A DNA stretch of 64,000 nt from assembly GCF_036321535.1 (NCBI RefSeq), contig NC_087436.1:248001-312000 (forward strand), read 5' to 3'. This DNA comes from Camelus dromedarius (lineage: Eukaryota). Of this stretch, positions 22,800-52,019 are shown piece by piece; the first letter of the stretch is position 1, and every line of letters starts with the position of its first letter. Position numbers and translations under genes: made by a program. The notes under the pieces were generated by a model. The model made no database searches and had not been told where the DNA came from. It saw nothing but the letters and a program-made list of their open reading frames with translations.

Positions 22800-24530
22800 C
22801 TGCAATGAACTGCTCGTACTCAATGTCAGGGATGTTTCTGTTGAGACTTGGGAGGTCAAAGGAGTCGGACCAGGGATCGGGGCTCTGCCAGTGGTAGAGG
22901 TGGCCCCAAGGGAATAGCACCAGTACCGGCTCCTCCATCTTCAGCAGGGTCTTCAGGAGGAAGGCAATGTGGATGCAGACGTTCCTACGGAGGCTGAATC
23001 CCTCTGGAAGGTTGACGTCACACAGAAGGTACCTGGCTGGGAGCAAAGGAGAGCGGGTCATCAGGGCCAGGCCTCTGCACAGGAATCCCGGCTTAGATAG
23101 AACAGATACAACGGGAATCCCTGCACAGCCCATGGCCTACAATCCAGACACATTCAGCAGCTTCTGGTTTGTAAAGTGGAGGCACTGCCCACCCATCTCC
23201 ATGTGGCCAATTACTTCAAGTCCGGGAGCAGTTGTGGAAGACATCTTGGCATCTGTCTAACATCAAGCACCTGACTAGCACCTGAGCACCCGTTCTCCAG
23301 GGGCTCTCAAACTTCTTGTTTTACAGAACCCTATACATTCTTAACAATTACTGAGAACTCCAAAAGGCTGCTATTTATGTGAGTTAAATCTATCAATATT
23401 TCCTGTGTTAGAAGTAAAATAAGAAGTTAGAAAAAGTGTATGAATTCACTTAAAAATATTAACAATCTACTGTACGTTACCATTAATACTCTTAAACAAA
23501 ATATAATTCTATTTTTCAAAAGAAAAATCATTAGTGAGAAGAATAGCAGTGATTTTAATTTCTGCAAATCTCTTTTGGACTGGTGAGAGCTGAATTCTCC
23601 TATCTGCCTCTGCGTTCCCTGTTTTGTGATATCACAGGCCAGGTTTTCCCTGGAAAACCCCACAGGAACTCGGGAGAGCAAGAGTGTGCAAAAGGCAGGT
23701 GACATCCAGGCGTTTCTATGAAAATGGTTTTGCACCTCAGGGGCCTTGGATACACTTTGATAACTGCTGCCCTATCCAAGGCGAGACTCTTCTACACAAG
23801 AGCCAGGCAAGGGTCCTGGATTCTGTAATGAGTTACCGCCACCACACCCCTCCCTTTTCTGTGTGTTTCTCACAAACTCCATTACTGCAGATGAGGATGT
23901 AATCCTCAGCTGGGGCCTCTAATCCCAGAAGGCTGCTAACTTCAAGAGAGAGGGTCCCATCTACCATCCCTACACCCCGCATAGTTTATTTTGAGTGAAG
24001 CCCTAGATAACTACTTATCGGCACAGACCCTTGTGTCTTATTCCTGAGGTTGACTGAAGGAACCAACATCTGGATGGAACTGAAATTTCCCTGCAGATAA
24101 ACAAGGCTGATAAACCACATCATTCCAACATGTGACTCTGGGGCTCTTCAAAACCCGGGTAAGGACCCGCTTCATCTAAGAGGGGTCCTCCGCCTGCCCG
24201 TCCCGGTGGGTTCTGGGAGGCCGCGGCCACCAAGGGCTACCCAGACTCGCGGCCCCAGCCCCAGGGCCTGAGGGGGAGGAAAGCTTGAGTCTGTGCCCAA
24301 GCCCTGTCCCGCCCCGCCCCAACACACTCCCCGGCACCACAGCCCTCCCCGGCCACCACCCCAACACCGATCCCACCCTGGTTCATGTCCACCGGCCCCG
24401 CCGACGGCGCGGATGTACGTTTACCATCTGTGAGACGCCGCCCCAGACAAGATGTCGGCCGCCTACTGACCAGGCCAGAACTAGTCGCCCGGCCGAGCAA
24501 GCCGCCATCCCCAGCAGCAAGCACCGCCAT
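22800..24530 (-). pseudogene. POFUT2: POFUT2 5' partial duplicate (unprocessed pseudogene): coding exon 1 24530-24425, exon 2 23032-22800
   Basis: Exon 1 reads ATG GCG...LLLG... then [24 protein letters not shown], vs human [21 protein letters not shown]; TAG stops at 24483-24481 and 24465-24463. Exon 2 (CCAG|G...GCAG|GTGAGG, 233 nt) reads [77 protein letters not shown], vs [83 protein letters not shown]. No exon 3 seen downstream. Confidence 0.95.
23298..23769 (+). mobile_element. hAT-Charlie (Charlie1-like) DNA transposon relic in POFUT2-copy intron 1
   Basis: Termini CAGGGGCTCTCAAACTT ... ACACTTTGATAACTGCTG; internal ACATTCTTAACAATTACTGAGAACTCCAAAAG. Confidence 0.7.
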
Positions 24531-25050
24531 GGTCCCGGGCAGCTGCACACTTCCGGAGCCCGCTGCCCGCCCCAGAAGCTCAGGCCGGCCCGCGCGGAGC
24601 GCGGCGCCTGTAACCATGGCAACGCCGCAGGGCCATCCTCTAGCGCTTGCGTCGAGTGTCTTCCCGAGTCTAGATGTGCTAGGGCAGAACTTGCGGAGCC
24701 AATGGGAGCCAGGGCGCGGCCAGGACGGAGGTGGGGGAGGCTTATTGGGCAGTCGGGCGGGGCCGCTCGGAAGTCCTGACCTGCAGGTGGCGCCGGGCGG
24801 AGGCTGGGGCGGTGCTGCCACCAGTGGGCGGGGCAGTGGGGCAGCGGGGCAGCGAGATGGGGACACCCACACCTGTCCCTGTGTGGGGATCAGCCTGGGC
24901 TCCGTGGCCTCCGCTTGCACCGGACGTGGACCCAGGCTACCAGTGGGCAAGATAGAGGACTGAGCCCAGGCACGCACGGCTGGCCAGGTAGGGCACCTGA
25001 AGTGCAGATCCGCCAGGCCCGCTGCCGGCCTTGAATACTCGCTGCTAGGC
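24150..25050. promoter_or_regulatory. CpG-island promoter of the POFUT2 copy, probably bidirectional
   Basis: CpG-dense. RFX X-box GTAACCATGGCAAC at 24610-24623, CCAAT at 24699, inverted CCAAT (ATTGG) at 24744, GC box at ~24755, ETS motifs CGGAAGT at ~24768 and ACTTCCGG at ~24549. Plus-strand donor CCAG|GTAGGG at ~24987. Confidence 0.85.
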
Positions 25051-27289: not shown

Positions 27290-29765
27290 AGCACACTCCC
27301 CCCGTCTCCCTCTGTTCTTTTCACTGTCCCATTGTCCCTGAAGGCTCTTTCGTATCTTCTGCTCATGACTCCAGTAACTCTTCCTCCTCTTTCCTCAGCT
27401 GGTAAGTTTACTTTTCTACTTTAACCAAGCAAACTGAAGCCAAAAGAAGAGAACATTCACCAGCAACTCCTAGCACATCCGCTCACCTTCTGATGTCTGT
27501 GACCTCACTCTCGCTTCCCCACCTCTTATTACAGGTGACATCAAAAGCCATATCATCCAAAAGTCGCCAGGGGGCCCATCCATCCAATCTTCTCCAAGCT
27601 GTCTCTCCCACATCCATCCTCTCTGTCACTACCTCATCTATTTTGTTCTCCTGCTAGTTGGCTCCCATCAGTATATAAAAGTCCATCCTCTTAAAAGAAA
27701 CAAACAGCACTCCTTGACTCTAATTGGCCCCCACCAATTGCCACCCCATGTCTTTGCAGCAAATCTTTAATGAGTAGTTTAAACTCACTGTCTAAATATT
27801 TTCTTGAGCCATCCGCTTTTGCACCCACTCTGGCTTTTCCCCTGATCCCTCGCTCTATGGAAACTGCACTGTCAAGGCCATCAGTGACCCCACGTTGCTA
27901 AATATAGTGGTCAGTTTTTAGTCTTCGTCATGCTTGGCCCTTTGGCAGCATTTGACCCAGCTCTTCCATCCCTCCTCCCCCGTGTTCCTGCTTTACTTGA
28001 CCTCCAGCCTATCGCTCTGCTTTCGATCTTCTGGCTGGTCTTTTGCCAACGTCTCCTCTTTTTTCCAAACATTTACTGCGAATGTGCCCCGGAGTTGGGT
28101 CCTGGGTCTCTCCTCAATCTCTCTGCTATAACTTTGGTGGAAGCAACCAGACTTGGAAATTGACATGCCATCAATTTCTCGATTTGTCCAAACTCCCTGA
28201 TTTGCCCTTTCCATTTGGAACTCTCTCCCTGATACTCATATTCTTTTTCTTTCACTCATCTTGCTTTCACATTCATACATATGTTCTACTGTGTAAATTA
28301 CTTTTCCAAATTTTGAATCAGTCCATATATATCATGTAAAATGCTCAGATCTCTATTATTTCCACTAAGATGCTTATTCTACCTTAGAACCTTTCTGCAT
28401 TTCTGTATTTATGTCAATAAAGTGAATAGTATTTCTACAAGCCTCATAGTTAAACAGTGTGTTTGTTTGGGGCTATTATGTAACATGAAATAATGATACA
28501 TCAACATAGTCTTTTTTCATTTAATTTTATGTAACACCAAGATGAGGTTTTTGCATGAAGACTGGTTTTATTGAAATTTTACCTAAGTTATGGACAGTCA
28601 GTTTATGTGAAAGCCCTCATTTCTCCTCTTTTCTGATATATTTTCCATTTGGCTATTATAACATATACATTGGCATGAAATAAAATTCCAAAATCATTCA
28701 CATAATAAAATCAATACATTTAAATTATATTTTTTAATGTTAATAAGAAAGAAAAAGAAACCCAAACTCCTCTACTTATTAGGCATTTCTGTGGCAATAT
28801 CTAATAGACTCCTTAACCATGACATTGAAGAACTGAGCTGATTCCTACCCCTTTCCACCTGCTCAGCCCCATATTGTCCCATCCCCTGTGGATGGAGAGG
28901 ACATCCATCCCATTTTCCAGGTCCAGATATTGGAACCATGTTCTTTCTCTCTCTTTCACTTACACACACACACACACACACACACACAGCAAATACAGCT
29001 TGTTAGAAAATCCTGGCTACTCTGAATTCATTAACCACCTACTCCCTGTTCCCCACCCTCCTAGGAGCCACCTTCAACCCCTTGTTGGACACCAAATAGC
29101 CTCCTTCTTCCATCTTTGCTTTTCTACAATCTCATCCACACAGAGTCAGAGGGAGCCTATAAAAGCATACATTGAGGGGGTGGGTGTAGCTCAGTGATAC
29201 AGTGCATGCTTAGCATGCATGGGATCCTGGGTTCAAACCACAGCACCTTCACTAAAATAAATAAATTAACCTCCTCCCAAGAAAACCCAAAACAAAAGCA
29301 TAAATTGGACATCACCCATCCCATCAAAACTCACTAAAAGGGTCACCATTCCATTAGGAGCCAAAGTCGTCCCAAAGTCTTCCAGGACCCGGCCTGCTCT
29401 GCCTCTCCGCCCACACTCTCCCCATCACTCTGGGGGCCTCTGGCTCCGGCTCTTCCTTCTTCCTCCGGATCTATTCTGCTTCAAGTTCATTACTCCGTGA
29501 GATCTGCCAGGATTGCCTTATTCCCTCCTGCCTGCCTCCCACCCCACCACCATCACCTGAGTTTGCTCATATCACTCTTATTTTTCCCCAAGCTCTTGCT
29601 ACCCCCATCATGTTGCCTGTTTTCTCTGCTAAAACTCTGAGCCCCCAGTGATGGGGAGTCGTGTCTATTTTGTTGACTAATAAAGCCCAAGAGCCTTGGG
29701 AACGGGTATAGTTACTAGATTCCCATAAGTAGTAGGAGCTTATACAGATTTGCTGAATGAATGCA
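27290..29765 (+). mobile_element. Fragmented L2 LINE, interrupted by an AT-rich element (~28200-28760), (CA)n and a SINE
   Basis: L2-like motifs: GAAACTGCACTGTCAAGGCCATCAGTGACCCCACGTTGCT, CAGCATTTGACCCAG, GGGTCTCTCCTC; 3' end TTTGCTGAATGAATG. Confidence 0.7.
29175..29293 (+). mobile_element. tRNA-derived SINE (camelid type) with target-site duplication
   Basis: GGGGGTGGGTGTAGCTCAGTGATACAGTGCATGCTTAGCATGCATGGGATCCTGGGTTCAAACC with A/B boxes. Flanked by AAAAGCATACATTG (29161) and AAAAGCATAAATTG (29294). Confidence 0.88.
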
Positions 29766-30447
29766 GAGGTCCTGGTCCAATTCGATGGAGCACTTCTGTG
29801 TCCTGCTCAAAGATTAACTCTCCTTTCCTCCTGAGAGAGGGTGACCACTTCCTTGGTGATCAAAGCAAGATCTATTTTCTTTATGCTGTTAACCTTAGGC
29901 GGGGAGACTGGGGGATCTTCATTTATATTTTAAAATTTGATTCACTCTGCAGTTTGTCTCCTGTCTATGTATCCTTTTGAGAAACCGTTTATGAGTGATC
30001 ATTCTTCCATCAGATTGAACAGGATCCAGGGGGAAGCACCAAGCCTGTCCCATCGGCCATCCTGTGTGTCATGTCCTGTGACCCAGTGGATGCTCAGCAT
30101 GTATGTGAACCAAAAGGAGTGAGTGAAGAGATGGGAACATCTCATTATTGTGGTGGCTGCACTCTGTCCGATGCCTTGAGATATGGGGAAGGGTTTACAA
30201 CTGCGGAGGCGAGATGTCAGGTCCTCTGTGCTCTTCCTGAGTGCCCTGGCCTTACCCATTCCCCCAGCCCCCTCTGGGCAGCCAAGCCCAGGAGCTGGGC
30301 CACCGGCAAATGTGCTGATCAATAATCCACCTCACCCAAAGTCCGGGGGTAAGAGCGGCCAGCACAACTGGTTGTAGACTCTGAAGTCAGGTCCTTGGAG
30401 GAATTCCTCACTGAACAATGTTTTGGACCTTTTATTTTTCTCTATAG

Positions 30448-33400
30448 CCTCCAGCTGAAGAAACAGATTGCCTTAGGTACATGAAAGTGAGGACACCTAC
30501 TATCCCCATGGAGCCCAGTTGGGCCTGGGAGTCTGCTGTTTGTACAGCCGGTGGGCTCGTGTTGCTTTGGGCATCCCTGTGCCTGAATTCCTGCAGTACA
30601 CTCGGTGGTAAGAACGGGGGTGCCTGGCAGGGAGGGAAGCGGGTCGGGAGACTACACAGCTGGGGAGACGTTAACCTGGGGTGAGCGGGAGCCGGCTGAT
30701 GCATGGAATCTCGGTGCAAGGAACTCTCCAAACTCAGAGAGGTTCCCACTCCCGCAGGGTCCCTTTGATCAGGGTGCTAGGCTGTCAGCACTGCAGGATC
30801 CCTGTGAGGATCACGGTGCCTTCAGGCAGTGGGAATTAAGGGGTCCAGTGGCAATTAAATTGACTGTGCACCCAAAGCCAACCCCTGTCTGTTTCAGCCT
30901 GTTTCCTAATCTGCAAAACTGGAATGATGTTAACCATCCCGCAGGTTTGTTGATGGGCTGGGACACACTAGACAGCCAGGAGCTGGAATTCCTCTGTGCC
31001 CTGATTGTTATCCTTCCTTCACACTATTTACTCTCACAAGTTCAGTCTCTCTGTCTCTCTCTCATTCACTTGTAACTTTCTCTACTGCTCTGATTTCATT
31101 TGATTCCCACCCTCCTCCCAATCCCCAGATGAGTGAAATTAATTTCTGTGTGTCAGTTCCAAATTCCTGGGAAAGATGCTCTGTCCTCTCTGGATTGGTT
31201 GTCCAACCCATCAGTTGCAGTCAGAGGAGTGAGTCCCTCTGTGACCAGAGGAGGGGCTCTGCCCAGCCCCCCAGCCACCACTGTGGGAGCACATAGCTCT
31301 CCGAGGAGGAGGTACTGGCTGTGACTTGGTGTCACTAAGTGTGAATTTATCTCTCCTCTTGCCCCACCTTCATCCTCCTAAACAAAGATGAAAATTATAC
31401 ACTCCCGAGATTTGTGTCATGGAACACTCAGGGTGGGGGCTAAGAGGGCTGGATTCCCTGCTGAATGTAAGGGGCTACAGTGATTCCCCAACGAGAGCTT
31501 GTAAAGGAAACAGCACCAGCCCCACTGGACACTTAGGGTGCTGAGTCTGCGTGACATTGAGCCAGGCTTCTGACCACAGCTCAGGGGACTGGTCCGACCG
31601 GTTAGTCTTTGAAACCAACCAGCTTTGGATTCCTCAATCCCTCCCTGAGGTTTTACCTGAACCACGAGCTTCTGTATCTCTGAAGACAGATGATGAGGAC
31701 CCTTCACGTAAGGCATTTGCACAGCCCTGTGCGGGAATTTGTGCTGCACGGTCTGCCCGGCGAGCTGACCAAAGTTCGTATTTTACTGATCTTAGAAATA
31801 GTCTGGTTTCCTGATGCACTGTTTCACTGAACAAGCAACAGAAGCCACCTCTGGCTGATAAAAATCAAAAAGGGACTTAATGAAAAGATACTGGGAGGGT
31901 GCATGGAGTGGCCCAGACCAGAGCCGACCCTGGGGCCGTAGGAGATGTTGGGGAGCCCCAGGCACCAGGCTGCGCAGGGTGCTACCGGGCCCCCTGCTGC
32001 CCCAGCAGGGACCCCCCCTCCTCCTGACACTCCACCTCACTGCAGGTTCATGTCCCGGCAGGGCCAGGTCACACTGAAGCCACCAGCACACACCTCAATG
32101 GGGGAGTTGGCCCCTTCTCAGCTGAGGGCGTGCCTGGTGTAGGGAGAGGCCCAGTTAGAGGAAGACGGTTCCCCTACTGTTCCGAGTTAATGCGCAAGTC
32201 AGTGCCCATCACTCAGGAGAGCCGGGCTGGCCTGACCTCATTGTGGTGACTAGGCCGTCTGAGTTCACGTATTACTTTTTAGGTTGGAAGGCCCAAGAGG
32301 GAGAAAAAGTGGAGGTTCTAGTACTTATTTTATATTTCCCATGTACCAGGTGCGGTATGCAAGCCACTTCAGACAAGGCCCATAACAACCACATTAATAG
32401 GCCACGGAGAAAGTCGTGCATTCAGGCCTCTGCAGCCCCGAAACGCGTGTCCTCATCAGTTCCGTAGTTACCAGTGGAAGTTGTAGGGATTTATGGGACT
32501 GTGTGCTCCTGTGGGGCTGGGATGTGTGTGTTTAAATCCACATCTTCAGAAACTCGGCCAGAACCACAGCCACTGATTGTCTGCATGGAGGCAGAGGAGG
32601 GGAGGCTTCCAGCCTCTGGTCCAGCTCGTGTGGAGCTCAGAAATTGCTCCTTCTGTCCTGAAAACAACACCAGAGCTGAGGGAGCTGAAAACCCACTGCT
32701 GTTCTTAGACCCACAAGAAAACTGAGGGGGAAAGCTGCTCCCAACCCAGAGAGGCAGCCGGGCAGGCTTGGAGAGTCACAGCTCCCAGGGCAGAACCCGC
32801 TATTGTAAGAAACTAGGGGGCAGGCAGATTTAACAGGTCCCTGAGGCCAGCTGGAAACAGCGTGGGGAAGTCTGAGTGTGACAACTTCAGGGGGCCAGTC
32901 AGAGGGGCCCCCTGCTCTTTTTCATGCATTTTACTTCGAGGACAGTACCCTGTTCTCAGAGTGAAAATCATAGGAAAACTCCTCATGCTTCCTGCCAGGA
33001 AAGGATAAAATAACTCTAATGAAATACACCCAGAACATTCTCTTCCATTGTGGGGGGTTGTGTTTTTTTTTTAAATGAGAAATTATTTTACCAGAGCCTA
33101 ACCAGCCTGGGGGAAGGGAAATCCCTTCTGTCTCACCCAAATTGGGGTGAAGGGAAAGAGACACACTTGTGGAGGTCACAGCTCAGGGCACAGGCTAAAT
33201 GAGAACTAATCACAGGAGTATAGATGCCCTGCTCTGTTCCACTACCCCAACACCTTACCTCCATGTCAGTAGGGCCTCTGTGTAATAACAGGAATAAAAT
33301 TAAAAGAAGTTAATGTCTCAGGAGTGTCTAGGGAAAACCCAAAGACAGCGGGCGGATGAAAACAAGGACACACAGGCAGCTTTAGCCTCTCACACCAAAG

Positions 33401-34089
33401 GCTGTAGCAAACTACACACAGCCCTTCCCAGTAGATAAACAGAAAACCTCACAGAAAAAACTATTTATTTTGGTTCTCTTACCCAGTGCATTCCATGGTG
33501 CATCCTCACCTAGAATTGAGTGGAAGCAAGTCCATTTCAGAAGGGACATAACTGAAGAGGAATGGCTTTCCAGACTCTGAAGGGCAGAGAAACACCAGCC
33601 TGGGTTAGAGAAAGGTGAGGGGTGGGGTAAGGGGTGGGCTGCCTTCCCCAAATAAGGAACCTTCCTGAGGCCAGCACAGTGGGAGGGAGGGCCATGGGGT
33701 GGAAGCAGATAGACTTCTTCCTGAGAACTGATGGGATGCCTCAAAGGGACCATTCAGGTGCCCATTCAGGTGTCTTGACGGTGGGAGCCAGTTGGTCTGC
33801 CTCAGAGCCCAGGACTGAGTTGGGTGCATAGCAGGCAGGTCTTACTTAGCCGGATCCATTTCACTTCTCCGAAGCCCTGTGTAAAACATGAAGCGTGAAC
33901 GGCCTGGTGAGCACAGCTCTGCCCTCAAGACCGGTTTCTACTCCTCTCTTCCCAGAGAACAGCATCTCTGAGCCCGTCCTGGGTGACCTCACAGAGATCA
34001 CCCTAGTGGCCCAGGCTAGTGACCGGGAACATGTACCTTCCTGCAGCCAACCCCAGACGTCCACTGATGCATCATATACTGGCAAATAT
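30448..34089 (+). pseudogene. Candidate degenerate exons of a fibronectin type III domain gene (30448-30550, ~31580-31707, 33956-34089); parent gene not recognised
   Basis: Good splice signals: TTTTTCTCTATAG|, CAC|GTAAGG, CTCTCTTCCCAG|, TAT|GTGAGT. 31707 joins 33956 in frame: SGDWSDRLVFETNQLWIPQSLPEVLPEPRASVSLKTDDEDPSQNSISEPVLGDLTEITLVAQASDREHVPSCSQPQTSTDASYTGKY. GDWSD.L.FET resembles an FN3 C-terminal strand, and LGDLTEITLVAQ resembles FN3 strands A/B. Confidence 0.35.
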
Positions 34090-34149: not shown

Positions 34150-34330
34150 GTGGGACATACAGGGGTGCAGGACTGTAAGCAGTGCAAAGGTGTAAGTGGT
34201 GGCAGGGGTGCAGGGGCTGTGGAGGGTGAAGGCAGTTCAGGGGTTGTGGGGGTGCAGGCAGTGCAGGGAGTGTCAGGGGTGCAGAGGTACAGGGAGTGTA
34301 GGGGTGCAGGGAGGTGCTCAGGCAAGTGCA
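34150..34330. repeat. Degenerate GGGGTGCA(G) minisatellite
   Basis: Repeated GGGGTGCAG / GGGAGTGT motifs with ~9-12 bp period. Confidence 0.8.
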
Positions 34331-34369
34331 CATCCTCGCAGTCAGCCTGACCACGGGAGGCTAGTGCAA

Positions 34370-36450
34370 TGGTTTGGGGCGGCGGAAGCGGAGGCGGCGG
34401 CGGGTGGGAGGCTGCCCGGGCAAGCCGGTCGATTTCTTCTTTTCCCTGCAGCCTGGCCTGGGGGTGCTTTGGCCGCCGGAGATTCGCCAGATGTTGGACT
34501 CCAAGTAAGCTTGCTCCTGGGAGGTGGGGCGGTTAGGTCAGCAGGCGGCGGCAGCGGTAGGGGGGCGGAGCGGGGCTGCCCCTGGCGAACTGGTGGAATA
34601 GCTGCCTTCTCCCGGCTGCCGGGCCTGGGAGCAGCCTCTGCTGCCCCAGGTCGCCGGACACACCTGTCCCACTCAGCTTGCTGAGTGGGGAGTGGAGGCG
34701 GTGCCGTTAATGTGCGGGGACCACGGGGGTAGGGGGGCTGCCGCGGGGGAGCCGGTCAATTCTCTCCGCACTCCCCCGCGGCGGAGCCTGGGGGCGGCCT
34801 CCGCTGCCCTAGAGGCGGGACGCCGGTCTCCAGGTGAGCTTGGTCCTGGGAGGTGGGAGCAGCGGCGCCAGGGGGAGGGGGTCCTTTCCAGGGAGCTGCT
34901 CCATTACTTCTCTCCCCCGCGGCCTGGCCTGTGGGCGACCTCTGCCGCCGGAGATTTCCCTGAGTCCGACTCCAGGTAAGCTTGCTCCTGGGAGATGGGT
35001 GCGGTGCGGTCAGGGAGCTGGTAAGGTGGTGGCTGCGGGGATAGGGTGGCTGCCCCGGGGTAGCTTGTGTATTAGCTCCATGTCTGCACCGCATGGCCTG
35101 CAAACGGCCTCTTCTGCCCCAGGTCCCGGGACACCCCTGTCCCACTTAGCTAACTGGGGGCGGGAGGCAGGGTAGACATGGTGCAGGGGTGGCGGGGTTC
35201 GGGGGCCTGCAGCTGGGAAGCTGGCCCATTTGCTCCCATCTTCCCCGCGGCTTGTCCTGGGGGCGGTCTCTGTTGCCCTGGGTTACGGGACACGTGTATC
35301 CTAGTCGGCCTGACCCCGGGAGGCTGGCGTGGTACGTTGGGGGTGGTGGCAGCAGCGGTGGGTTTTCCCATGAAGCTGGTCCATTTGCTCCCATTTCCCC
35401 TCATGGTTTGCTCTGGGGGCGGTCACTGTTGCCCCAAGTTCACCGGACGTCCATCTCCAGGTCAGCCTGCTCCCTAGAGGCGGCCACCGAGAGGTCAGGG
35501 GGCAGGAGCGGTGGCTGATGCGGGGGGATGGGGATGCCTTGGGGAGTTGGTGGATTGGCTTCTGTCTCCCTGATGGCCTGGTGTGGGAGCCGTCTCTCCT
35601 GCCCTAGATCACCAGACACACCTGTCCCATTCAGCCTGCTGGGAAGGGTCGCCCTGGGCGGTGCCTTTAAGGTGCGAGGGTGGCAAAGGCGGAGGTAGAG
35701 GACCTGCAGCGCGGAGCTTGTCAATTTGCTCCCCTCTTCCCCGCGGCCAATCCTGGGGGTGTCCTCTGCTGCCCAAGAAGCTGGATGCCCGTCTCCAGGT
35801 CAGCTTGCTCCTGGGAGGCGGACGCGATGAGGTCGAGGGGCAGGGGCAGCCGGCCGTCGCAGCTTCCTAATGGGGCCACTTCTCCTTTCCCCTGACCTGG
35901 CCTGGGGACGGCCTCTCCCGCCCAAGATTCGTCTGACACACCACACCAGGTCAGGTTGCTCCTGGGAGGTGGGCGCGGTGTGATCAGGGGGTGGGGAGGA
36001 GAGGGGTGCTGCCTATTGTGAGCTGGAGGATAACCTCCCATCTCTCTGGAGGCCTGACATGGGGGCGGCCTCTGCCGCCCCTCGTTCCCAGGTCACACTT
36101 CTCAGGGTCATATTGCCCCGGGGATGAGTTAAGGTGCGGGGGTGGCGGGGTGATGTCGAAGGTATGGAGCCTGCCGCTTGGGAGCTGGTGGTTTAGCTCC
36201 CATCTTCCCAGCAGCTTGGCCTGGGGGTAGCCTCTGTTGCCCCAGGTTGCAAAGCACAGTTTCCCTGACAGCTTAGCCACCTGAGGTGGGCAGGATGTGC
36301 TGAGGGGGCAGAGGCAGCTGCCAAGGCAGTGACGGAGGGGGCTGTCCCAGGCCAGCTGGTCTATTTGTTCCCATCTCTACCTTTGCTGCCCTAGTTTCGC
36401 AGGACGTCCTTCTCCAGTATTTCCTTCTCCTGGGAGGTGGGCGAAGTGCA
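34370..36450 (+). repeat. GC-rich tandem array, ~13 diverged units of ~160 bp, with trimeric higher-order structure
   Basis: Variants of the core CCTGGGGGCGGCCTCTGCTGCCCC at ~34456, 34624, 34787, 34928, 35097, 35256, 35412, 35583, 35752, 35901, 36058, 36220 and (partial) 36380. Most units end in CAG|GT(A/C/G)AGCTTGCTCCTGGGAG. Confidence 0.88.
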
Positions 36451-36743
36451 TGCAGCCCAAGGTCTGGGCTCTCCCCTGGGGAGGGGCAGAACTCTATTGT
36501 TCTCATTTGTCTTTATTCTTCAGCGAAGGGGTTACTGGACCCAATTCTTAATTCTGAGAATGTGTAGCCTATGTTAAGGAAGAGCTGCTGGACAGTGTGG
36601 TTTCTAGGTGGGTTTTCACATCAGCTGATGCCCAAGGCAGGCAGGAAAGCTATTACTCAGAGCTCCTTAGTGTGGAGTTGGGGGGTGGCCCTGCTGTCCT
36701 CACCATACTTTTTAAAAATGTGTCACTCCCCTTTTTTTCCTAG

Positions 36744-36856
36744 GTGACATTTTAGGTTATTGGGTCACAGATTCCTGGCACAATCATCCCTGTTCTCAAA
36801 CATCTTTTAAACTTGGATGAAGTGATAAGTAGGGGAAGAAGATGATTTGCTGAAAG
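36744..36856 (+). other. Candidate 113-nt non-coding internal exon
   Basis: Acceptor CCCTTTTTTTCCTAG|G and donor AAG|GTAAGA are near-consensus. Stops in all three frames. Not MRAP2 exon 2 or 3. Confidence 0.55.
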
Positions 36857-38255
36857 GTAAGAATACTTAAATTTGCATTAAAGCTACATTCTGTCAATCT
36901 TTCTCAAATGATTTTTCTCGGATTCAAAATCCACGACCTAATGAATGTTGTACTCCTGTGTAAATCATTGATCTTCAGATCACATTTGTTAAATGGTCAA
37001 TGAGATTTGTTAAGTAGATTATTCCTGAAAGGAAAAGCTCAGGCTTTTGAGAATTCCTTGTCTGATGTCACCCAGGCAGTCACAGTAGAAGACAGAACTG
37101 ATATAAAAATCCCTCAGCTGCCTGAACTGCAAAGCTTCTGGGATTACTGATCCCTGAAATGCAGGTGACTCTTGATGATATTCTGGGGCTTGGTTTACAT
37201 GATCAGATTCTTCCAGTCCTGTAAATGGGTTCCGTGGCCCCAGCCCCGGGAGAGCTGGTCATAAGGTCCATATCGTGAGGGGTGGGATGGGAAGGCAAGG
37301 TCTAAGAGCTGGAATCACTGAGATTCCACACTCGCTAAACACAGACTCCAGAGCCTAATTATTGTCAGGTTCTGTTCTGGATTTGAGAGTGTGTTCAGAC
37401 ATGATTCTTGCCCTTCAGGGGTCACTGCCTGGGTGGAAGTAACCTTTACACAAATCTGGGAAGGATGGCAATTAAGTAGATGGGCTGTTATGGTCCTCAG
37501 TATGCCCAGGCTCACTCTTCCAGGCACTCTTGGGACTAACGAGAGTCATGTTATTCACTCATTCACTGATTTATTACCCTTGAATTGATCATTTGTCCCA
37601 TAGTAAGTGAAACAAGGGATCAGGAACATGAATTTTGTCCCCTCTCCCATCACTGATTGTATCTGTCAGTCGGGCGCCCTGTGTATGCATTGTGAAATGG
37701 TGGTATTTTTTGCCCAATGGGGCAGCACTGACAGTTCTGAGAATCAGGGGAGTCTCGTGGGTAGGACAGAACCGTGACACACAAGGCAACACGCCACCAT
37801 GTGAGACAGCATTGTCGATGCTCAGGTGACCCGATGTAGACCGCGGTGCTAAACCTGAGCGTGTTCAGTGATCTTGGCTGCTCTAAAAATACAGACTACA
37901 GGTCCCAAACTCTGGAGACGCTGAGGGTCTGCACCTCAGAATTCTGCATTTTAAGAAGCACTTTAACTAATTCTGATGAAGATGATCTGAGTGTCCCAAT
38001 GAGAAACACTGGGGTGCGATTCAGCAATACTGAGGATTCTCAGGGAACGATGTCTTTTCAGGTTGGTTCAAGGTCCCTCACTTGAGACTTTTGCCTTGGG
38101 TTTAATTGTATGTGTTCAGAAGTGATGTCTCTCATTTCCAGTGCTTGTCAGCATGCTCTGTGCAGGGACTTGCACTCAGTAGATGGCAAAAACTATGATT
38201 CTTCAGGTCACCGAGCTAGAGTGTGAGTGATCTTTTATTTTGGTTTTCTTTATAG

Positions 38256-38645
38256 CAATGCAGAGTCTCCCGAGAAGAGATTCAGTCTGAACAGCTTTGT
38301 GTCAGACTTTGGAAGACCGCTGGTGCCCAAGGTGTTCTCTGGCAGGGCAATGACGAATCTAGGTCCCTCTTTCACTGCTACATCAATCATGTGGGCCACT
38401 TGGACAAGGCCAAATTTGCTATCCCAACCATAGCCCTTGACAGAGATATTCAGCTCCAGGAAGCCATCAGATGCAGCAGGTGGCCAGAGGAGGAGGCGAA
38501 CGGGCTCATAAAATGTGACATCCCCAACTTCATCAATACGGACCAGAACTCTTCCTTTGGGGAAGATGATCTCCTGATTTTGGAACCACCAATTGTTCTA
38601 GAAGATAAGCCAGTTGCTCAGACCTCACACATAGACTTGAATTGA
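38256..38645 (+). pseudogene. MRAP2: MRAP2 last coding exon, isolated frameshifted duplicate
   Basis: Acceptor TTTTCTTTATAG|C, then NAESPEKRFSLNSFVSDFGRPLVP-KVFS, a 1-nt deletion at ~38341, then QGNDESRSLFHCYINHVGHLDKAK...ALDRDIQLQEAIR...CDIPNFINTDQNSSFGEDDLLILEPPIVLEDKPVAQTSHIDLN*. Human MRAP2: NAESSEKRFRMNSFVSDFGRPLEPDKVFSRQGNEESRSLFHCYINEV...FGEDDLLISEPPIVLETKPLSQTSHKDLD. MRAP2 exons encoding the N-terminus and TM helix not found in the window. Confidence 0.93.
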
Positions 38646-40289
38646 GAAACGTGCTTTGTCAAGTGTCTTTCTGAAGATGTGAAGTTTGTCTTTGTATGGC
38701 AGGAATTCCCCTTTCACAAAATTGTATGTGTTTGTGTCTGAGAGAGAGAAATGGAGACAGACAGAAAGACGGAGACAGAAGAGCACCCCCTCAGAAGAGA
38801 GCTAGTTAAGGTGAGTTTTGTGCCTTTAAAAACATTTGGGGTTTTGGTGGGAACAAAGTATTTACATTGTCTCATTCTCCTAGTTGGAAACCTTGGCCCC
38901 ATACTCAGTGTTAGCGGCCTTGAATGGGGATTGGCACGGTGCATTTCATCTGGCGCTGCCACATCCATGCTCTGCCTTTAGCACGTTGCTTTGCCTCTCA
39001 GGGCTGCCACCCTTTTAACTGTAAGGAGAGGAGTCTGGAGTAGGTGATCCATCCCAGCTCTGCTGTTTTGCAAATTTCTGATTTCGTATTCGGATGAGGC
39101 TGGGATACACCCAGAGCAGTATAAACCAGGCCCTACCTCCTGTCTCTTGCTGGGGCATCCCTTAGGCCTGTGCTTCTACCCAACCCTTTACTGAGCCCAG
39201 CTTTTGTCAGGAGCCCAAGAGCCTACCGAGATGGCAGGGGACGTCTCTCGTGGTCACGGTGGCCATCATTTCTATTGGTTGTGCTGAAACAGCTCTTCTG
39301 AGATCCTCCGGCCACCCTTGCTCCAACCTGAGGACAGCCCTACCGTTTCTTTCCTAGGAGGAGGATCAATCCATGGTGCATTTTATGACAATCCTGTCCC
39401 CAGGAATGCACGGAAGGTTATCAGCTGAGTGAGGTGAGGTGCCTCTGTTTCTCTGCGTCCCTGTATCTCTGTCTGCTCACAGTGCCCTGCCTCCGGCTAC
39501 TGAGCAAGAAAAGTGCTATTCACCATGATGGGTGTTTTGCAGATGTGTAGGTGATGGTCGTGTAGCTCATGTGTGGGCTTTGAGCTGGGATGGTGAAGAG
39601 CTTATAAATACCTCATCAACATTTATTCGAGGTGGCCTGGTGCCACACAGACTTGATTAATGAAGGCATCAAGCCTACACACTGGTTTGGAAACAACTTG
39701 GTTTTGATCAGTCACACTGCATGCATGACTCGCTGCTAATCTCTGGGTGGTTTTTTCATTTTAGATTTATTCACCCAGTGTCTTGCTTAAGCTGAAAAAT
39801 ACTTTTATTTCACCAGAATATTCTCTGATTCTTTGTTTTCACTCATCCAGTTTTTTAATTCCTTTAAAAATGTTGTGTTTATAATGCCTCCTTATTTCTA
39901 TCATCTCTAGGTTCCCAGTGGCCTGAGCCATGCAGCAGACTTTATGTAGGAACTGTACCACCAAAAGAAATCCCCTCGCCATAATGTCTTTTGAGGAAAA
40001 TATTATTCTTTAAGACTCTAACACTAAATCGTAGAAGAAAGCATGGAACATTTCTTGTAGTTAATACATGTTCATGCAAAAAGAAATTTGATATTTTCAT
40101 TGAAAAATGTTGACTTTAATAACTTTTACTAATGTGAATATTATTATTCATTATTTAATTAACCAAATAATACCACAGTTATTTATTATTAAGATTGAAA
40201 ACTATTTACACAGTCTCTCAATTAGAAGACTGAAGTGTATTTAAAAGATGGAAAAATACCCATGATGACACCATCTTTTTTATTAACTA

Positions 40290-41110
40290 AATATCAAGAA
40301 CTGTGCAGGGTTAAGATTTGACCCCCTGCAAGCTGCCAGGTTAGCATGAGGTAGTCTGTGGATGCTGCCAGAACACAGGACACTCCCCCAGGATCAGAGA
40401 CAAAGGACTTCCTGCCGGCACAGCAGGCAGCCTGGGGTTCATGTTCATGTTGCTTCCTGAGCTCTTTTCCTATTGCTGTTGTAACTAAGGACCACAGACT
40501 CAGTGGCTTAAAGTAACACACATCCATTGTCTCACTGTTCTAGGGTGCAGAAATGCAAAGTCAATGTCAGTGGGCTAAAACCAACGTGTGGCCAAGGCTA
40601 CGTTCCACACTGAGGCTCTTGGGAGGGATTCATCTTACTACCTTTCCAAGCTTGCAGAGGTGCTCACACTCCTTGGCCCAGAGTCCTGTGTCACTGTGAC
40701 TTCTGCTGCCACATCACATCTCTGTCTCTGACCAATCTGCCTCTCTCCTCTAAGGACCTCCGTGATGACGTTTGCTTCCCACAGTGATCTGCCATCCCAA
40801 GGTCCTTGACAGTCACACCTGCAGAGTCCCTTTTGCCATGCACAGTGACATTCCTAGGTTCTAGGGATCAGACCGTGGACATATTGGGGGCCATTATTCT
40901 ACCGAGTTCTTCCCTTTGGCCCCACTGATTCTTGTCCATCCCACATGAAAAATGCATCCACCTCATCCCAACACCCACCAGAGTCTCATTTACTACACCA
41001 TCAACTCAAAGTCCAACATGTAGTCTAACTATTATCAGCTCAAAAGCCTAAGTATTTTCATCCTCAACACCTAAGTCAGGCATGATTGAGACCCTGGGTG
41101 TGATCTTCTC
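40290..41110 (-). mobile_element. LTR fragment followed by an antisense MaLR (MLT1-type) LTR
   Basis: TTTCCTATTGCTGTTGTAACT...ACCACAGACTCAGTGGCTTAAAG...CACCTGCAGAGTCCCTTTTGCCATG. Confidence 0.65.
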
Positions 41111-41317
41111 TGTTCAAATTCCTGCAATGGCTTCTCATTTTACTCAGTGAAGAAGCGAGTGTCCTTATGGTGACCTTACAGCTTTCCTCCCCCTCCCGAA
41201 GCTGAGCTCATCTCCGGTTTTCTCCCTGGCTCACTCCGCTCCAGCCACACTGGCCTCCCTGCTGTCCCTTGGGAATATCAGACATGCACCCACAGGCCTG
41301 TTGCCCTGGCCGGTCTC

Positions 41318-41712
41318 TGTCCAACTCATATGCTGAAGTCCTGAACCCCAGGACTACAGAACATGACCCCACTTGGAAATAGGGTTGTTGCAGATGTCAT
41401 TGGTTAAGAAGAGGCCATTAAGTTGGGCCCTAATCCAGTATGACTTGTGTCCGGATAAATAGGGGCAATGTGGACAGAGAGACACGTGTACATGGGAGAT
41501 GACGTGATGAGATGTGGAGAGAAGACGGTCGTCTCCAAGCCAAGGAGAGAGGCCTGGACCAGCCTCTCCCTCCCAGCCCTCAGGAGGAGCCTGCCCTGCT
41601 GACACCCTGCCTGCAGACTCCCCGCCCCCAGGGCTGTGAGACAGTGAGCCTCTGTGGTTCATGTCACCCAGTGTGCGGTGCTGTGTTAAGAGGGAGCTCA
41701 GCAACTAGCACC
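41318..41712 (+). mobile_element. MaLR LTR (MLT1B-like)
   Basis: TCATATGCTGAAGTCCT...TTGGAAATAGGGT...GGGCCCTAATCCAGTATGACT...CAAGCCAAGGAGAGAGGCCT. Confidence 0.8.
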
Positions 41713-45620: not shown

Positions 45621-47294
45621 TTACATCCTCTTCTGCCAAAATTCCACCCATGTCTTTGGCCATCTCCAAAGCCACATTTTCTGAAGAGGTCTCTCTAGAT
45701 CCTAGGTGAAAGTAATTCCTCTTTCATCTGTGCTCCATTCACATTTCTTAATATTTGATTACATTTATTCATATTTGGCTTTATGCACTTGTCTGATCTT
45801 TCCTGCCATATAGTAAACCTCTCAAGATTAGGAATCTTGACTTGGTTCCCTCTGTCTGCTGAGAAAACTAGTTCTATGCTTTGCAGGAGTGAGCCCTGCA
45901 GTAAGAGGTATCTGCAGCACACGTCTATCTCATTGTTTGCATATTGTCAAGGAATCCTGCAGATTTGGAATTGTTTATTGATTGTTGTCTCCAAGACGGC
46001 TAGGTCTTTTTTATTTCTATTACTACTGCTGCAGTTTCAAAGAACAATGGGCTAATTATTTTCCAAATATGAAAACATACTGTAATTGAGTTGTGATGCA
46101 AATTATGTGCTGCTGTGTCTTAAAAACCTGCTTAGTGTTCACAGGCCCCTTCACTCATGGAACTTTTGGGAGAATGACATATCCTTAGAGATAACACTGC
46201 TGACTTTGGCGACTTGAGCAGCAGTATCTGAACTCACTCCTGCTGTTTTTCCAGTGTCCCCTCTAGCCGTCCTCCAGCCCTCCATGCCCGAACCTGCAGT
46301 TCTGCCCTCGAAATGCCTATTACTTCTCAGGAAGACTTCCCTATGAAACATAATCATATCCTTCTTGTGGGGACATTCAGTCCAGTGACCTGACAGCAGG
46401 GGAAAATGTTTAGTCTGCTCTTGGTAGAGCCTAAACTCTTCCATACTTATTAGAAGCAAATCCAATGAGGAAACTGTGTTGGCATCTAACAAATCAGCAT
46501 AAATGTCTGATGAGGAAGATCAGCTTCCCCATCCCACTCAGGCGTCATGTTGGTGTGACACTCACCATGGCTAACATTTTCTCCTGTGTGCAATGTAAGT
46601 TTCAAGACATTATGAATGGCTTTTTGTTTTTCTTCATTGGTCTTTCCACATTTACTGTGTCTGGTGAGATTATAGGAATCCTGCTTATTTTCAGCCCAGC
46701 ACTTACCCTTTTTAAAGGATCACGTGTTTAAAAGGCTAGTGGACAATTTGTTAGAAGATAGAAATCCTTAGATTTTGGTCCTAGAGTTGAATCTTGGTTA
46801 GGGGTGAATGAAAATTCCCATTAAAATTTTAAGTTCAGTGTTACAAAGTTTTAAAAATAGTTAAATATTAGCCAATTCCATTAAACACTTTAGCAGTTAT
46901 TTACTTTTAATCCTGCTTCTGGGGCAATTTTGCAATGATTCCCTCCCTTTGTTGATTCCCTCTTTGTCAGAATCCTTGAGAGGCCCCTGTCATCACTGTC
47001 AGTATCATCATCATCATCATGATGGAACTGATTCCTCTGGAAAGTTCTAGGAAAATAAACAGATGTGTGGGGTTATGTGTAGGTCAATGTGTGCATATAC
47101 AATAAGAACAGTTATCAGACATTAGATGCAAGATATCCATTTTATTTAGAGAAGAATGTGGTCATGAAATCCTGATGTGGTGAATGAAGGAGCAGTGGGA
47201 ACAGGATAGTCAGTGGAAAGGAGGAGGAAGTGAGCGAAGCGGGGAGCATAGATCCTTGGTTAGCCGATCATCAAATTGGTGTGAATGAGGGGAG

Positions 47295-48058
47295 TGTGGT
47301 GGCAGAATCATGTTCCTCCCCTGCCACAGGTTAGCCAACAGTGACATGTTTCTGTACATGGCAAAAGGGATGACAGATATATTAGGAGAAATATTTTAGA
47401 GGATTTCGGTATTCTAAATTCTCTATTAGCCTTTTAAACCCATGATACATTATTAAAGTTTAGTGGAGGGCCACAAATAAAAAGGATTCATATAATCTCA
47501 CCACACATACTGAAGGTAGAAAGACTAAGGAAGAAAAACAAAAAGTCATTCATAAGTGCCTTGAACCTTAAATTGCTCATGGGATGAAATGTCACACAAG
47601 GTGAGTGTCACAGCCACATACATAATGCCTGAATGGGAGGGGAGAAGGGGATCCTGAGATGAGACAATAGGGTGAGTAGCCTGGATTGTCCAGGTGGGCC
47701 CAATGTAATCACAGGGGTCTTTAAAATTGAGGACGTAGCCCAGCTGAGTTTAAAATCAGAGGGAGGTGTAGCCATGGAGCAGTGTTCAGAAAGGCTGCTG
47801 GCCATGAAAATGGAGGAAGTCGTGGGACACAAGCTAAGGAAGGTGGGTGACCTCTGGAAACTGGAAAAAAAAAACAAAAACGAGGAAACATTCTCTTCTA
47901 GATCCTCTAGAAGGAAGGAACTCTGCTGGCAACTTGAATTTAGCTCAATGAGAACTGTGTTGGATCTCTGACCTCCACAGCCATAAGCTGATAAATCTGT
48001 GCTGGTTTAAGCTGTTAAGCTTATGGAAGTTTGTTACAGTGGTAATAGAAAAATATCA
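47295..48058 (+). mobile_element. MaLR LTR (MLT1D-like), interrupted at ~47380-47660
   Basis: TGTGGTGGCAGAAT...ACATGGCAAAAGGGA; CCTGGATTGTCCAGGTGGGCCCAATGTAATCACAGGGGTC; GTTGTTACAGTGGTAATAGAAAA. Confidence 0.7.
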
Positions 48059-49743: not shown

Positions 49744-50264
49744 TGTTTCCAAGTCCAGACTTGCTCTGCTCGTGCATTACAGGCCAATAAATCGGGAGAC
49801 CAGGTTTTGGGGGCAAGAAACAGCGACTTTAATTTGGAAACCCAGCTGAGAAGATGGAAGTCTAATGTCCTGGAAAACCATTCCCCAAAGTCAGAATTCA
49901 GGCTCTTTTTATATTAAAAAGGGGAAGCAGGAATGCTTGGTTGCTGCAAACTTGGTTTATGAATTCTTTGCTGTTAGAGCCTTTTGTTCTTGCAGCTCTT
50001 AGCCTGGGTCAGATCCGTGTAAACCTCCAACAAACAAATGTTATTTTCTATTCTGTAACATGTTACCTTATATGAATGGAAAAGTGTTAATATCCTTTAA
50101 AGTCAGAGCCTTGAGAATAGGGTCTCCTGTATATTTCAGGATCTAGGCAACATTGTTTTACAAAAGGTGCAGAACAAACAAGACTAAACCTAGGAAACAG
50201 GGCACAGGGTTAAACTCAAAAGAACAGATATAACATGGAGTCAGATTTGTTCTTTCCTATTTCA
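49744..50264 (-). mobile_element. ERV solo-LTR (same family as 455-1167)
   Basis: Reverse complement TGAAATAGGAAAGAACAAATCTGACTCCATG ... GGACTTGGAAACA, with TG...CA ends. Confidence 0.85.
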
Positions 50265-50919
50265 GTAGTGCCATGGAGAAGGCACTTTGGGCAGCTTGTT
50301 GTAGGGTCCTGGAGGCTTTCTCTCTCAGCCTCTGGGCGCCTCTATTGCAAACCCTTCATAGCTGTTTGGCCTGCTGGAAAACCACTCCGACTGTTTTGCC
50401 CGTAAGATGCGTTCTGTTTATAACTCATCTCTACTCCTTGGAAAACAACTCAATAAAAACTCAGTTGGTTTTCCACCAGCCATGGGCAGGGGTGAGGAAT
50501 AGCACTTTATTATTTTATAAAAAAAAAAATAAAAGAAATCTTAAAACAGCACTGGGCACATAGGAGAGAGTCAATAAATGCTTCCTGGCTAAAATCAAAA
50601 TTGATGGCTCAGTGATTCCATGGCTGCTGTATTTGCTGAGCTTGCTACTCCTTTGCTCCATTACACATTTTTTTTAACTGAAAAAGAAATACATGCATGT
50701 GGTTAAAAAAATTCAAACAGAGCACAAAAATACACAAGTGAAAGAAGTTTTCCCTCATCCTCTCTTCTTTCAGCCCTCCCTGGAGATGCCACTGTTTATT
50801 ATCCTTTGTTTGCTTTTCCAGATAGGCTATGCACATTCCCACCTATGTATGTAAATTCCTTTAAACTTTTACTTATTTTTAACTTAAAGGGGTTTAAATC
50901 CTCAAGTGGCTTCTGCCTG

Positions 50920-51403
50920 GGTAATAGAACAGAACAAATCTGACTCCATACTAGATCTTTTCCTTTGAATTTAACCCTGTGCTCTGTCTCCTAGGCTTCA
51001 TCTTGCTTGTGAAACAGTGTTGCCTAGAGCCTGAAATATACAGAAGAGCCTAATCTGAAGGCTCTGACCTTTAAGGATATTTAACACTTTTCCATCCATA
51101 TAAAGATAACAAGTTGCAGAAAAGAAAATAACGTTTGTTTTGCTGGAGGTTTACAGAGATTTGACTCAGGCAGATAGCTGCAAGAACAAAGGATTCTAAC
51201 AAAAAAGAATTCCTACACCAAGAAGTATGCTACAACAAAGCACGTAGGAAAGGAGCCTGAATTCTGACTTGGGGAGATGGTTTTCCAGGACATTTGTTTG
51301 CCATCAAGGTCTACAGAAACTTGCTATTCCATGCCCCAACACCTGGTCTCTGAAATTATTGGCCTGTCCTGCAATGAGGAGAATGAATTTGGACTCGGTA
51401 ACA
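50920..51403 (+). mobile_element. ERV solo-LTR (same family as 455-1167)
   Basis: GGTAATAGAACAGAACAAATCTGACTCCAT ... GAATTTGGACTCGGTAACA. Confidence 0.85.
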
Positions 51404-52019
51404 CTCCTATCTACCTAGCAAGCTGGGCACTGGATCTGAGGACAGCTCTCCCACACCCAGGGACCTACTGTGAGCCCTTGATGGTTCCACTAGGGTGGGG
51501 TGTGGTTTATTCAGGAGGGATGGGCACTATGCACCAACACTCAGGCAGTCTGCTCTGTCTGGGGCTCTGATCTTGTACCTCCCGCTCCCCACCAGCCCAA
51601 CACCTGGAACAGTGGAGCTAAGACAGAGATCGTGCCTGCCTGTTTCCCAGCGTGTAAAAGGGGAATATGAACTCTTCCCAAGGTAGTTCTGAGCGACAAC
51701 ACCTTCGGGTGCTTGGTTCCCAGAGCAACAGGGAACCCAGCTCCGCGTGGGATCAACGGGTGTGATCCCGTAGGGGTTCTGCAGAGGCCTCGGCTGGAGG
51801 GCTGGACCAGGGAGGGAAAATTTGAGTTGCGGGCCTTGAAGTGTTAGTGAAGGGTACAGAGGCAGGACTGAATTCTGTTTCAGGATGCCACCAGAGGTAA
51901 ACCTTTTTCTCTACATCTCTGCTACTCCCCTCCCCTGTCCAGATCCCTCCCTTCTCTCTGCACTTCCTGTCCATCTGTCTCCCTCCACTTTTCTCCTCCT
52001 CCCCTCCTCCTCCCATCTT

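What the first reader, a model, noticed from the sequence alone, without database searches (positions are those of the whole stretch)
34370..36450. ~160-bp GC-rich array with trimeric higher-order repeat and serial splice donors: a possible battery of alternative first exons
Seen: ~13 units spaced 141-171 bp. Every third unit shares GACAC(A/C)CCTGTCCCA (~34656, 35129, 35614; period ~480 bp), and units 1 and 4 share GCCGCCGGAGATT...GACTCCA(A/G)GTAAGC. Donor-like sites recur: CAA|GTAAGC ~34504, CAG|GTGAGC ~34833, CAG|GTAAGC ~34975, CAG|GTCAGC ~35460 and ~35798, CAG|GTCAGG ~35949. Unit 1 also has an acceptor (TTTTCCCTGCAG ~34450). A strong acceptor follows ~300 bp after the array. Inference: an amplified promoter/first-exon unit feeding a common downstream exon. 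The G-runs could also form G-quadruplexes.
Basis: partly seen in the sequence, partly recalled or inferred. Interest (0 to 1): 0.7.

Follow-up and report, generated by a model that had tools for sequence, protein, structure and literature searches.

The report
Repeat-derived exons in camel chimeric gene
An old GC-rich tandem repeat supplies optional middle exons to a many-copy camelid transcript stitched together from the start of one gene (POFUT2) and the last exon of an appetite regulator (MRAP2); it is probably non-coding.

Summary
The array is real: 13 units of about 160 bp (34341-36454), about 60% identical, with a significant 3-unit period (0 of 10,000 permutations). All 72 related models I mapped (70 with camelid names) carry upstream exons. 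They splice through unit 1, units 3-4, unit 7, a 21-nt microexon in unit 9 and units 12-13 to the 36744 exon (27 models) or to a frameshifted copy of the MRAP2 last exon at 38256 (4 models). Two models start 10 kb upstream, in a CpG island shared head-to-head with a broken POFUT2 copy. The block has at least 20 loci on 8 Bactrian-camel contigs, with copies in dromedary, wild camel and alpaca. The unit-1 exon is annotated in all three frames, which points to a non-coding chimeric transcript. The evidence is from predicted models of paralogs; I have no read-level data, so starts inside the array are not excluded. My searches found no paper on it. This scan noted the same array family earlier in another genome (e1-7859016).

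The parts
34341..36454 (+). Degenerate GC-rich tandem array, 13 units of about 160 bp, with an old ABC trimer order
34452..34504 (+). Unit-1 internal exon (53 nt; CAG acceptor, CAA|GTAAGC donor), annotated in three different frames across models
   Evidence: 70 of 72 models; frames 48/17/5; splice sites
34787..34975 (+). Exon spanning units 3-4 (189 nt; alternative acceptor near 34813); reads through the 34833 donor
   Evidence: 50 joins in, 37 out
35416..35493 (+). Unit-7 cassette exon, donors 35460 and 35493; the acceptor differs between paralogs
   Evidence: P0109, P0113, P0126, P0064, P0076
35778..35798 (+). 21-nt microexon in unit 9 (longer forms exist in some paralogs)
   Evidence: 19 models join the unit-4 donor to it; splice sites
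36272..36461 (+). Exon from units 12-13, donors 36436 and 36461
36744..36856 (+).
   Evidence: 27 of 72 models
38256..38645 (+). Copy of the MRAP2 last coding exon. The first ~29 codons are out of frame relative to the parent, the next 100 in frame (75% identical to camel MRAP2). No transmembrane exon; no in-frame ATG within the exon
33956..34089 (+). Exon immediately upstream of the array (ATGs at 34031 and 34067)
33487..33614 (+). Upstream exon; in this copy it has a stop and a frameshift in the frame annotated in Camelus paralogs
30014..30944 (+). Three upstream exons: 30014-30100, 30448-30607 and 30898-30944
27493..27534 (+). Coding-annotated part of a further upstream exon
24780..24987 (+). 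Probable first exon of the + strand transcript (donor CAG|GTAGGG); exact start unknown
   Evidence: P0114 and P0131 (C. ferus) map here at 76%
24200..25000 (.). CpG island (70% GC, CpG o/e 0.65) with RFX-, CCAAT-, ETS- and GC-box-like motifs (motif patterns recalled); probable bidirectional promoter
22801..24617 (-). Broken 5' fragment of POFUT2, divergent from the array transcript (first-exon part 24369-24617; O-FucT exon 22801-23091)
   Evidence: Pfam PF10250 E 1.8e-7; paralog model P0138 matches human POFUT2 in PDB 4ap5 at E 6e-39
34202..34311 (+). Separate 26-bp minisatellite just upstream of unit 1

Best explanation
The array lies inside a camelid segmental-duplication module made of a POFUT2 5' fragment with its CpG-island promoter, then upstream exons, the array, and the MRAP2 last exon. 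The module is present at 20 or more loci. RNA polymerase II starts at the POFUT2-derived island and transcribes away from POFUT2 (inferred from two models). Each 160-bp unit holds a pyrimidine-rich stretch with potential AG acceptors and, in most units of classes A and C, a GT donor. The array is therefore a row of weak, competing splice sites. The spliceosome picks variable sets of cassette exons and a microexon from it, then joins them to the 36744 exon or to the MRAP2-derived exon (shown in predicted models of paralogs; inferred for this copy). The products are most likely non-coding or nonsense-decay-prone chimeric pseudogene/lncRNA transcripts. The isoform variety is then a by-product of repeat amplification rather than a selected code (inferred). 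The array was formed and had decayed before the module spread, because the same units lie in the same order in alpaca and camel models.
For: Models map colinearly to canonical AG/GT sites of the window, and 15 join types were counted. At least 20 C. bactrianus LOC ids on 8 contigs, 7 in C. dromedarius and 4 in C. ferus, with alpaca models on 5 contigs (lower bounds, since one cluster of 84 showed 15 members). The dromedary POFUT2-side model P0137 and MRAP2-like models P0006/P0057 share a contig length of 912,551. The unit-1 exon is annotated in three frames. The array has 14-18 stops per frame. This copy has a stop in an upstream exon. The model-supported routes (e6 to unit 1 to MRAP2; e6 to unit 1 to units 3-4 to MRAP2) give no through ORF from either e6 ATG. 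There is no Pfam family on P0089, P0061, P0001 or P0005. MRAP2-derived copies are 75-81% identical to camel MRAP2, whereas camel and whale MRAP2 are 89% identical.
Against: All splice evidence is from predicted XP_ models at paralogous loci. I could not see their supporting reads, and no reads were laid on this locus. The model set was found by protein searches and is biased to long ORFs and to upstream starts. The first exon rests on 2 models of one C. ferus locus. The 129-codon MRAP2-derived frame is open in this copy and in several paralogs, and 68 of 288 hypothetical routes put an ATG in frame with it. No AATAAA/ATTAAA lies in 38646-41500, so the 3' end is unknown.
Confidence: 0.65

Rival explanations
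1. One reading: several units are also promoters whose first exons splice to a shared downstream exon, as in the UGT1 or PCDH variable-first-exon clusters.
For: The array is 66% GC with 11 GC-box matches, and CpG o/e is 0.58 over 34501-35000. Donors and the 36744 acceptor are used in models. A protein search is blind to ORF-less starts.
Against: 72 of 72 models carry upstream exons. The units that are used have working acceptors. Whole-array CpG o/e is 0.49, and only 1 ETS-like and 2 CCAAT-like matches occur in 2.1 kb. The unit is not significantly similar to the 24.6-25.1 kb island (10 of 100 shuffles score as high).
Confidence: 0.12
2. Inert decayed satellite: the gene models reflect low-level read-through and annotation noise, and this particular copy may not be transcribed at all.
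For: No read-level evidence here. The frames are incoherent. Alpaca pseudogene-rich repeat blocks are thought to accumulate through genomic context (PMC13751797, Discussion part read).
Against: The same exon boundaries, including a 21-nt microexon, recur in models from four species' annotations, with isoform numbers up to X10. Such models usually need transcript alignments (recalled).
Confidence: 0.13
3. A young protein-coding family: array exon choice gates translation of a soluble, transmembrane-less MRAP2 C-terminal domain that could modulate GPCR signalling.
For: The 129-codon frame is open in the window and in P0001, P0002, P0056, P0057, P0061 and P0070. The frameshifted 5' part is shared by Camelus and Vicugna copies. 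Routes through unit 7 give 141-246 aa ORFs in this copy, and routes through the long unit-12/13 exon give 133 aa. The MRAP2 C-terminus is required for modulating MCHR1 (PMC8931191, abstract).
Against: Annotated proteins are selected for open frames. Several copies end early (P0003, P0004, P0005, P0044). Only 4 of 72 models reach this exon in frame. The N-terminal frames differ between paralogs. 68 of 288 routes (24%) is no more than chance would give. The copies diverge faster than the parent.
Confidence: 0.1

Closest known systems
Chimeric pseudogenes made by segmental duplication (ANAPC1P2, HYDIN2; PMC13122177, abstract and outline seen)
   Same: Pieces of unrelated genes fused by duplication, driven by a promoter co-opted from the upstream parent, giving spliced chimeric RNAs of uncertain coding status.
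   Different: Here the promoter appears to be used in the direction opposite to its parent gene, the middle exons come from a tandem array, and the module is dispersed at 20 or more loci in camelids.
Primate core-duplicon families (LCR16a/NPIP; PMC7419210, abstract and outline seen)
   Same: A transcribed, lineage-restricted, interspersed multi-copy module with variable exon structure.
   Different: NPIP keeps an open reading frame and shows positive selection. Here no frame is kept across the array exons, and no role as a duplication driver was tested.
Variable-first-exon clusters (UGT1, GCNT2, PCDH; PMC1885805 and PMC3325998, search listing with abstract start)
   Same: Tandem units that splice to shared downstream exons.
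   Different: Those units are long coding first exons, each with a promoter. These are 21-190 nt internal exons entered from upstream.
Tandem repeats that affect splicing (ABCA7 intronic VNTR; PMC5954066, search listing only)
   Same: A tandem repeat inside a transcription unit shapes the isoforms.
   Different: This array is old, about 60% identical between units, and structurally stable across species rather than a homogeneous length polymorphism.
Alpaca pseudogene-rich satDNA blocks and VpaSat families (PMC13751797: Results part 1, section 14 and Discussion part 1 read; term search of main text and the one held supplement)
   Same: Multi-copy gene fragments in repeat-rich camelid regions.
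   Different: The listed monomers are 1.8-8.5 kb, and the named genes are NEK10, ATF5, FMN2, uS3m, ACTB and ABHD17A. MRAP2 and TRAPPC9 do not occur in the main text or the supplement; POFUT2 was searched only in the supplement (0 hits). Those blocks are reported absent from camels, whereas this module is shared by camels and alpaca.

Membership tests
Variable-first-exon cluster (UGT1/PCDH type) | Tandem units each ending in a donor that splices to shared downstream exons | tested here: met
   Joins from 34504, 34975, 35798, 36436 and 36461 to 36744 or 38256 in paralog models
Variable-first-exon cluster (UGT1/PCDH type) | Units are the 5'-most exon of their transcripts | tested here: not met
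   72 of 72 models carry upstream exons; the set is biased to ORF-bearing transcripts
Variable-first-exon cluster (UGT1/PCDH type) | Each unit has its own promoter and start site | not testable with these tools
   No CAGE data; the motif scan is only suggestive
Segmental-duplication chimeric pseudogene | Contiguous pieces of two or more unrelated genes | tested here: met
   POFUT2 fragment and MRAP2 last exon; a TRAPPC9-like piece is recalled only
Segmental-duplication chimeric pseudogene | Duplicated with introns and flanks, in several copies | tested here: met
   Intron-spaced exons and intron-derived peptides are colinear with the window; at least 20 LOC ids in one species
Segmental-duplication chimeric pseudogene | Transcribed and spliced across the fusion | tested here: inconclusive
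   4 predicted models join array exons to the MRAP2 exon; no reads seen
Core duplicon (NPIP type) | Maintained ORF under selection | tested here: not met
   Three frames annotated for one exon, and stops in this copy; dN/dS of the MRAP2 part was not computed
Core duplicon (NPIP type) | Shared core with differing flanking duplications | not testable with these tools
   No genome held; only proteins of the paralogs were seen
MRAP family protein | N-terminal and transmembrane region (Pfam PF15183) | tested here: not met
   PF15183 hits parent P0058 at E 7e-36 but not the window exon, P0001, P0005 or P0061
Satellite with higher-order repeat | Diverged monomers repeated as a multi-monomer unit | tested here: met
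   Period 3, 0 of 10,000 permutations
Satellite with higher-order repeat | Long array of highly homogeneous higher-order copies | tested here: not met
   Only about 4.3 trimers, at about 64% identity
Known camelid satellite or transposable element | Sequence match to a library entry | not testable with these tools
   No repeat library was available; published VpaSat monomer sizes differ; Rfam finds nothing in the array

The most novel reading that the evidence does not exclude
Camelids carry their own core-duplicon gene family in which a decayed higher-order repeat works as a splicing switchboard. Exon choice in the array sets whether an upstream or array ATG is in frame with a captured MRAP2 last exon. 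That yields soluble MRAP2 C-terminal proteins, fast-evolving and in many copies, that could tune MC4R, ghrelin-receptor, prokineticin-receptor or MCHR1 signalling and hence feeding and fat storage.
Probability: 0.08. Interest if true: 0.8.

Novelty: new member of a known kind. Interest (0 to 1): 0.42.

Why it matters
It defines an apparently undescribed multi-copy transcribed module shared by camels and alpaca, with identifiable parents (POFUT2 promoter, MRAP2 last exon). It is also a clear case of a tandem repeat supplying cassette exons and a microexon. There is a practical point: MRAP2 is listed as a selection candidate in Kazakh Bactrian camels (PMC13564503, passages seen). Many diverged copies of its last exon could disturb short-read variant calls and expression counts there (inference). 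If any copy makes a soluble MRAP2 tail, it would bear on camelid energy balance.

Tried and rejected
Tandem Repeats Finder misses the array. No whole genome is held, so paralog DNA, breakpoints and dN/dS could not be examined. Splicing and strand at this exact locus therefore remain open. A 25-letter unit motif gave 1 match in metagenome contigs, a chance hit inside a bacterial gene with no flanking similarity. Origin of the unit: a 61-bp, 72% match to the 24.8-kb island did not survive a shuffle control (10 of 100) or the profile search. The 52-kb island scored marginally on its - strand (0 of 100 shuffles; 1 of 8 tests, GC-rich, not seen by nhmmer), which I treat as compositional. Homologs outside camelids: the array peptide gave 10 hits among 993 candidates, all camelid. 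P0089 against 1.84 billion representatives gave 15 hits: 12 with camelid names, 2 not looked up (97% identical to the query), and 1 unnamed 51% match to an upstream exon, not to the array. This does not test non-coding homologs. The TRAPPC9-like piece got no support from Pfam, PDB or the ESM Atlas. Literature searches found no description of this module: MRAP2+camel, alpaca+segmental duplication+satellite+assembly (23), Bactrian camel+T2T+segmental duplication (43), camelid/gene family expansion/multicopy/lncRNA/POFUT2 with 3 of 5 terms (65), LINC00205+POFUT2 (58), plus general ones. The library lacks most subscription papers.

Full report
OBSERVATION. The sequence holds 13 degenerate units between 34341 and 36454 (profile search), spaced 141-170 bp. 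Units are 54-72% identical, against 49 +/- 3% for dinucleotide shuffles. Identity peaks at lags 3 and 6 (0.639, 0.657; other lags 0.585-0.610), and 0 of 10,000 permutations reach the period-3 contrast. 11 of 13 units have their closest partner in the same class mod 3. The trimer is ancient: trimers are only about 64% alike, and trees support only the group of units 2, 5 and 8. That group is the one with the GACAC(A/C)CCTGTCCCA motif, and it lacks the GT donor. Donor-like sites are enriched on + (23, against 10.2 +/- 2.8 shuffled and 7 on -; matrix recalled), but this is one repeated motif counted many times.

DOWNSTREAM EXON. An exon at 38256-38645 is a copy of the last coding exon of MRAP2. 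The best hits are camelid 'MRAP2-like' models at 73-85% identity, followed by true MRAP2 of many mammals (55 hits among 57 candidates). Its first ~29 codons are out of frame relative to camel MRAP2 and the next 100 are in frame. The shifted peptide is shared by Camelus and Vicugna copies. The transmembrane MRAP domain is absent. The window is thus camelid-like; this rests on these hits and on near-identical Camelus models.

THE ARRAY IN GENE MODELS. Two alpaca models begin with a peptide from an exon at 33956-34089, continue with array-coded peptides, and then join the MRAP2-derived exon. Searching with the array-coded part and with a long isoform, then listing cluster members, gave 72 distinct model proteins. 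70 carry camelid names; P0104 and P0106 were not looked up. I left out the unnamed P0115 cluster and the MRAP2-like models that lack array peptides. All 72 carry a peptide from exons upstream of the array, and 70 contain the unit-1 exon. Peptide signatures across joins show use of donors 34504 (59 models), 34975 (37), 35460 (1), 35493 (3), 35798 (12), 36436 (6) and 36461 (9). Joins go to the 36744 exon in 27 models and to the MRAP2-derived exon in 4. 19 models include a 21-nt microexon from unit 9. Each boundary falls on an AG or GT in the window. Donors 34833 and 35949 were not given signatures. These are predicted models of paralogous loci; I did not see their read support, and the set favours long ORFs.

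COPY NUMBER. The listings name at least 20 C. bactrianus loci on 8 contigs, 7 in C. dromedarius and 4 in C. ferus, with alpaca models on 5 contigs. These are lower bounds, since one cluster of 84 members showed 15. The same units appear in the same order in alpaca and camel models. So the array was fixed in form before the module spread and before the two lineages split (more than 11 million years, PMC13751797 abstract).

PROMOTER. Models run upstream through exons at 33.5, 30.9, 30.4, 30.0 and 27.5 kb. Two C. ferus models start at about 24780-24987, in a CpG island. On the other strand the same island heads a broken POFUT2 fragment: Pfam O-FucT at 22801-23091, and paralog P0138 matches human POFUT2 at E 6e-39. 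The + transcript is therefore the divergent product of a duplicated POFUT2 promoter (inference from 2 models). The array is GC-rich with many GC boxes but has lower CpG o/e (0.49 against 0.65) and lacks that island's motif set. Starts inside it are not excluded.

CODING OR NOT. The unit-1 exon is annotated in three frames (48, 17 and 5 models). The array has 14-18 stops per frame, and this copy has a stop in an upstream exon. From the two ATGs in the 33956 exon, 8 of 128 routes reach the MRAP2-like stop, and none of these is a route seen in models. With all exon forms, 68 of 288 routes give an ATG-ORF through that exon, no more than chance would give. The copies are 75-81% identical to camel MRAP2 over the C-terminal part, while camel and whale MRAP2 are 89% identical: relaxed constraint or positive selection, which cannot be told apart without DNA. 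Against the non-coding reading, the 129-codon frame is open here and in at least six paralog models. I put non-coding or decay-prone well ahead of a functional protein.

MECHANISM. Shown in sequence: the array, its period, the splice sites and the parent fragments. Shown in predicted paralog models: the internal use of units and combinatorial skipping. Inferred: the start at the POFUT2-derived island, transcription of this copy, non-coding status, and isoform variety as a by-product of repeated weak sites.

COMPARISON. It works like a duplication-born chimeric pseudogene (PMC13122177, abstract) spread like a primate core duplicon (PMC7419210, abstract), but it fails the maintained-ORF test of NPIP. 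It fails the first-exon test of UGT1/PCDH-type clusters (listings). The alpaca satellite survey (PMC13751797; parts read as listed under Closest known systems) describes pseudogene-rich blocks but not this module or a 160-bp unit. Ten literature searches found no description; they are listed under Tried and rejected. I take it to be the same family, though a sequence look-up did not return it. As shown, it does not mention POFUT2 or MRAP2.

VERDICT. Observation confirmed; interpretation partly supported. An apparently undescribed but mechanistically familiar camelid duplicon transcript: new member of a known kind, interest 0.42.

Noticed in passing
window 52000-52800 and 56891-57450 (+): A second CpG island (o/e 0.61) and a broken exon that I recognise from recall as the TRAPPC9 N-terminus; Pfam, PDB and the Atlas did not confirm it. 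No model examined joined the array to it.
   Followed up: partly
window 27493-34089 versus 34787-38645: Within single paralog models the upstream exons are often 93-100% identical to the window, while the unit 3-4 and MRAP2-derived parts are about 73-90%. This suggests mosaic copies, gene conversion or faster change at the 3' end.
   Followed up: no
window 29180-29251 (+): Rfam tRNA match (42 bits), followed by an A-rich tail; probably a tRNA-derived SINE (recalled).
   Followed up: no
window 1370-1978 and 5010-5619: Direct repeat of several hundred bases, 77-79% identical, 3.6 kb apart; could be an old LTR pair.
   Followed up: no
window 453-1160 and 49773-51373: Two related long inverted-repeat structures (arms 83-88% complementary) that also match each other; possibly copies of one interspersed repeat.
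   Followed up: no
window 46547-47619: Inverted repeat with arms of about 200 bp (78-79%) around a 666-bp spacer; DNA-transposon-like.
   Followed up: no
window 30395-30600: An unnamed 74-aa cluster from ENA/Logan matches this upstream exon region at 51%; it may be an older repeat or a homolog outside camelids.
   Followed up: no
window 38646-41500: No AATAAA or ATTAAA follows the MRAP2-like stop in this range.
   Followed up: no
L001 5001-5025: Chance 25-bp match inside a bacterial gene; unrelated.
   Followed up: yes
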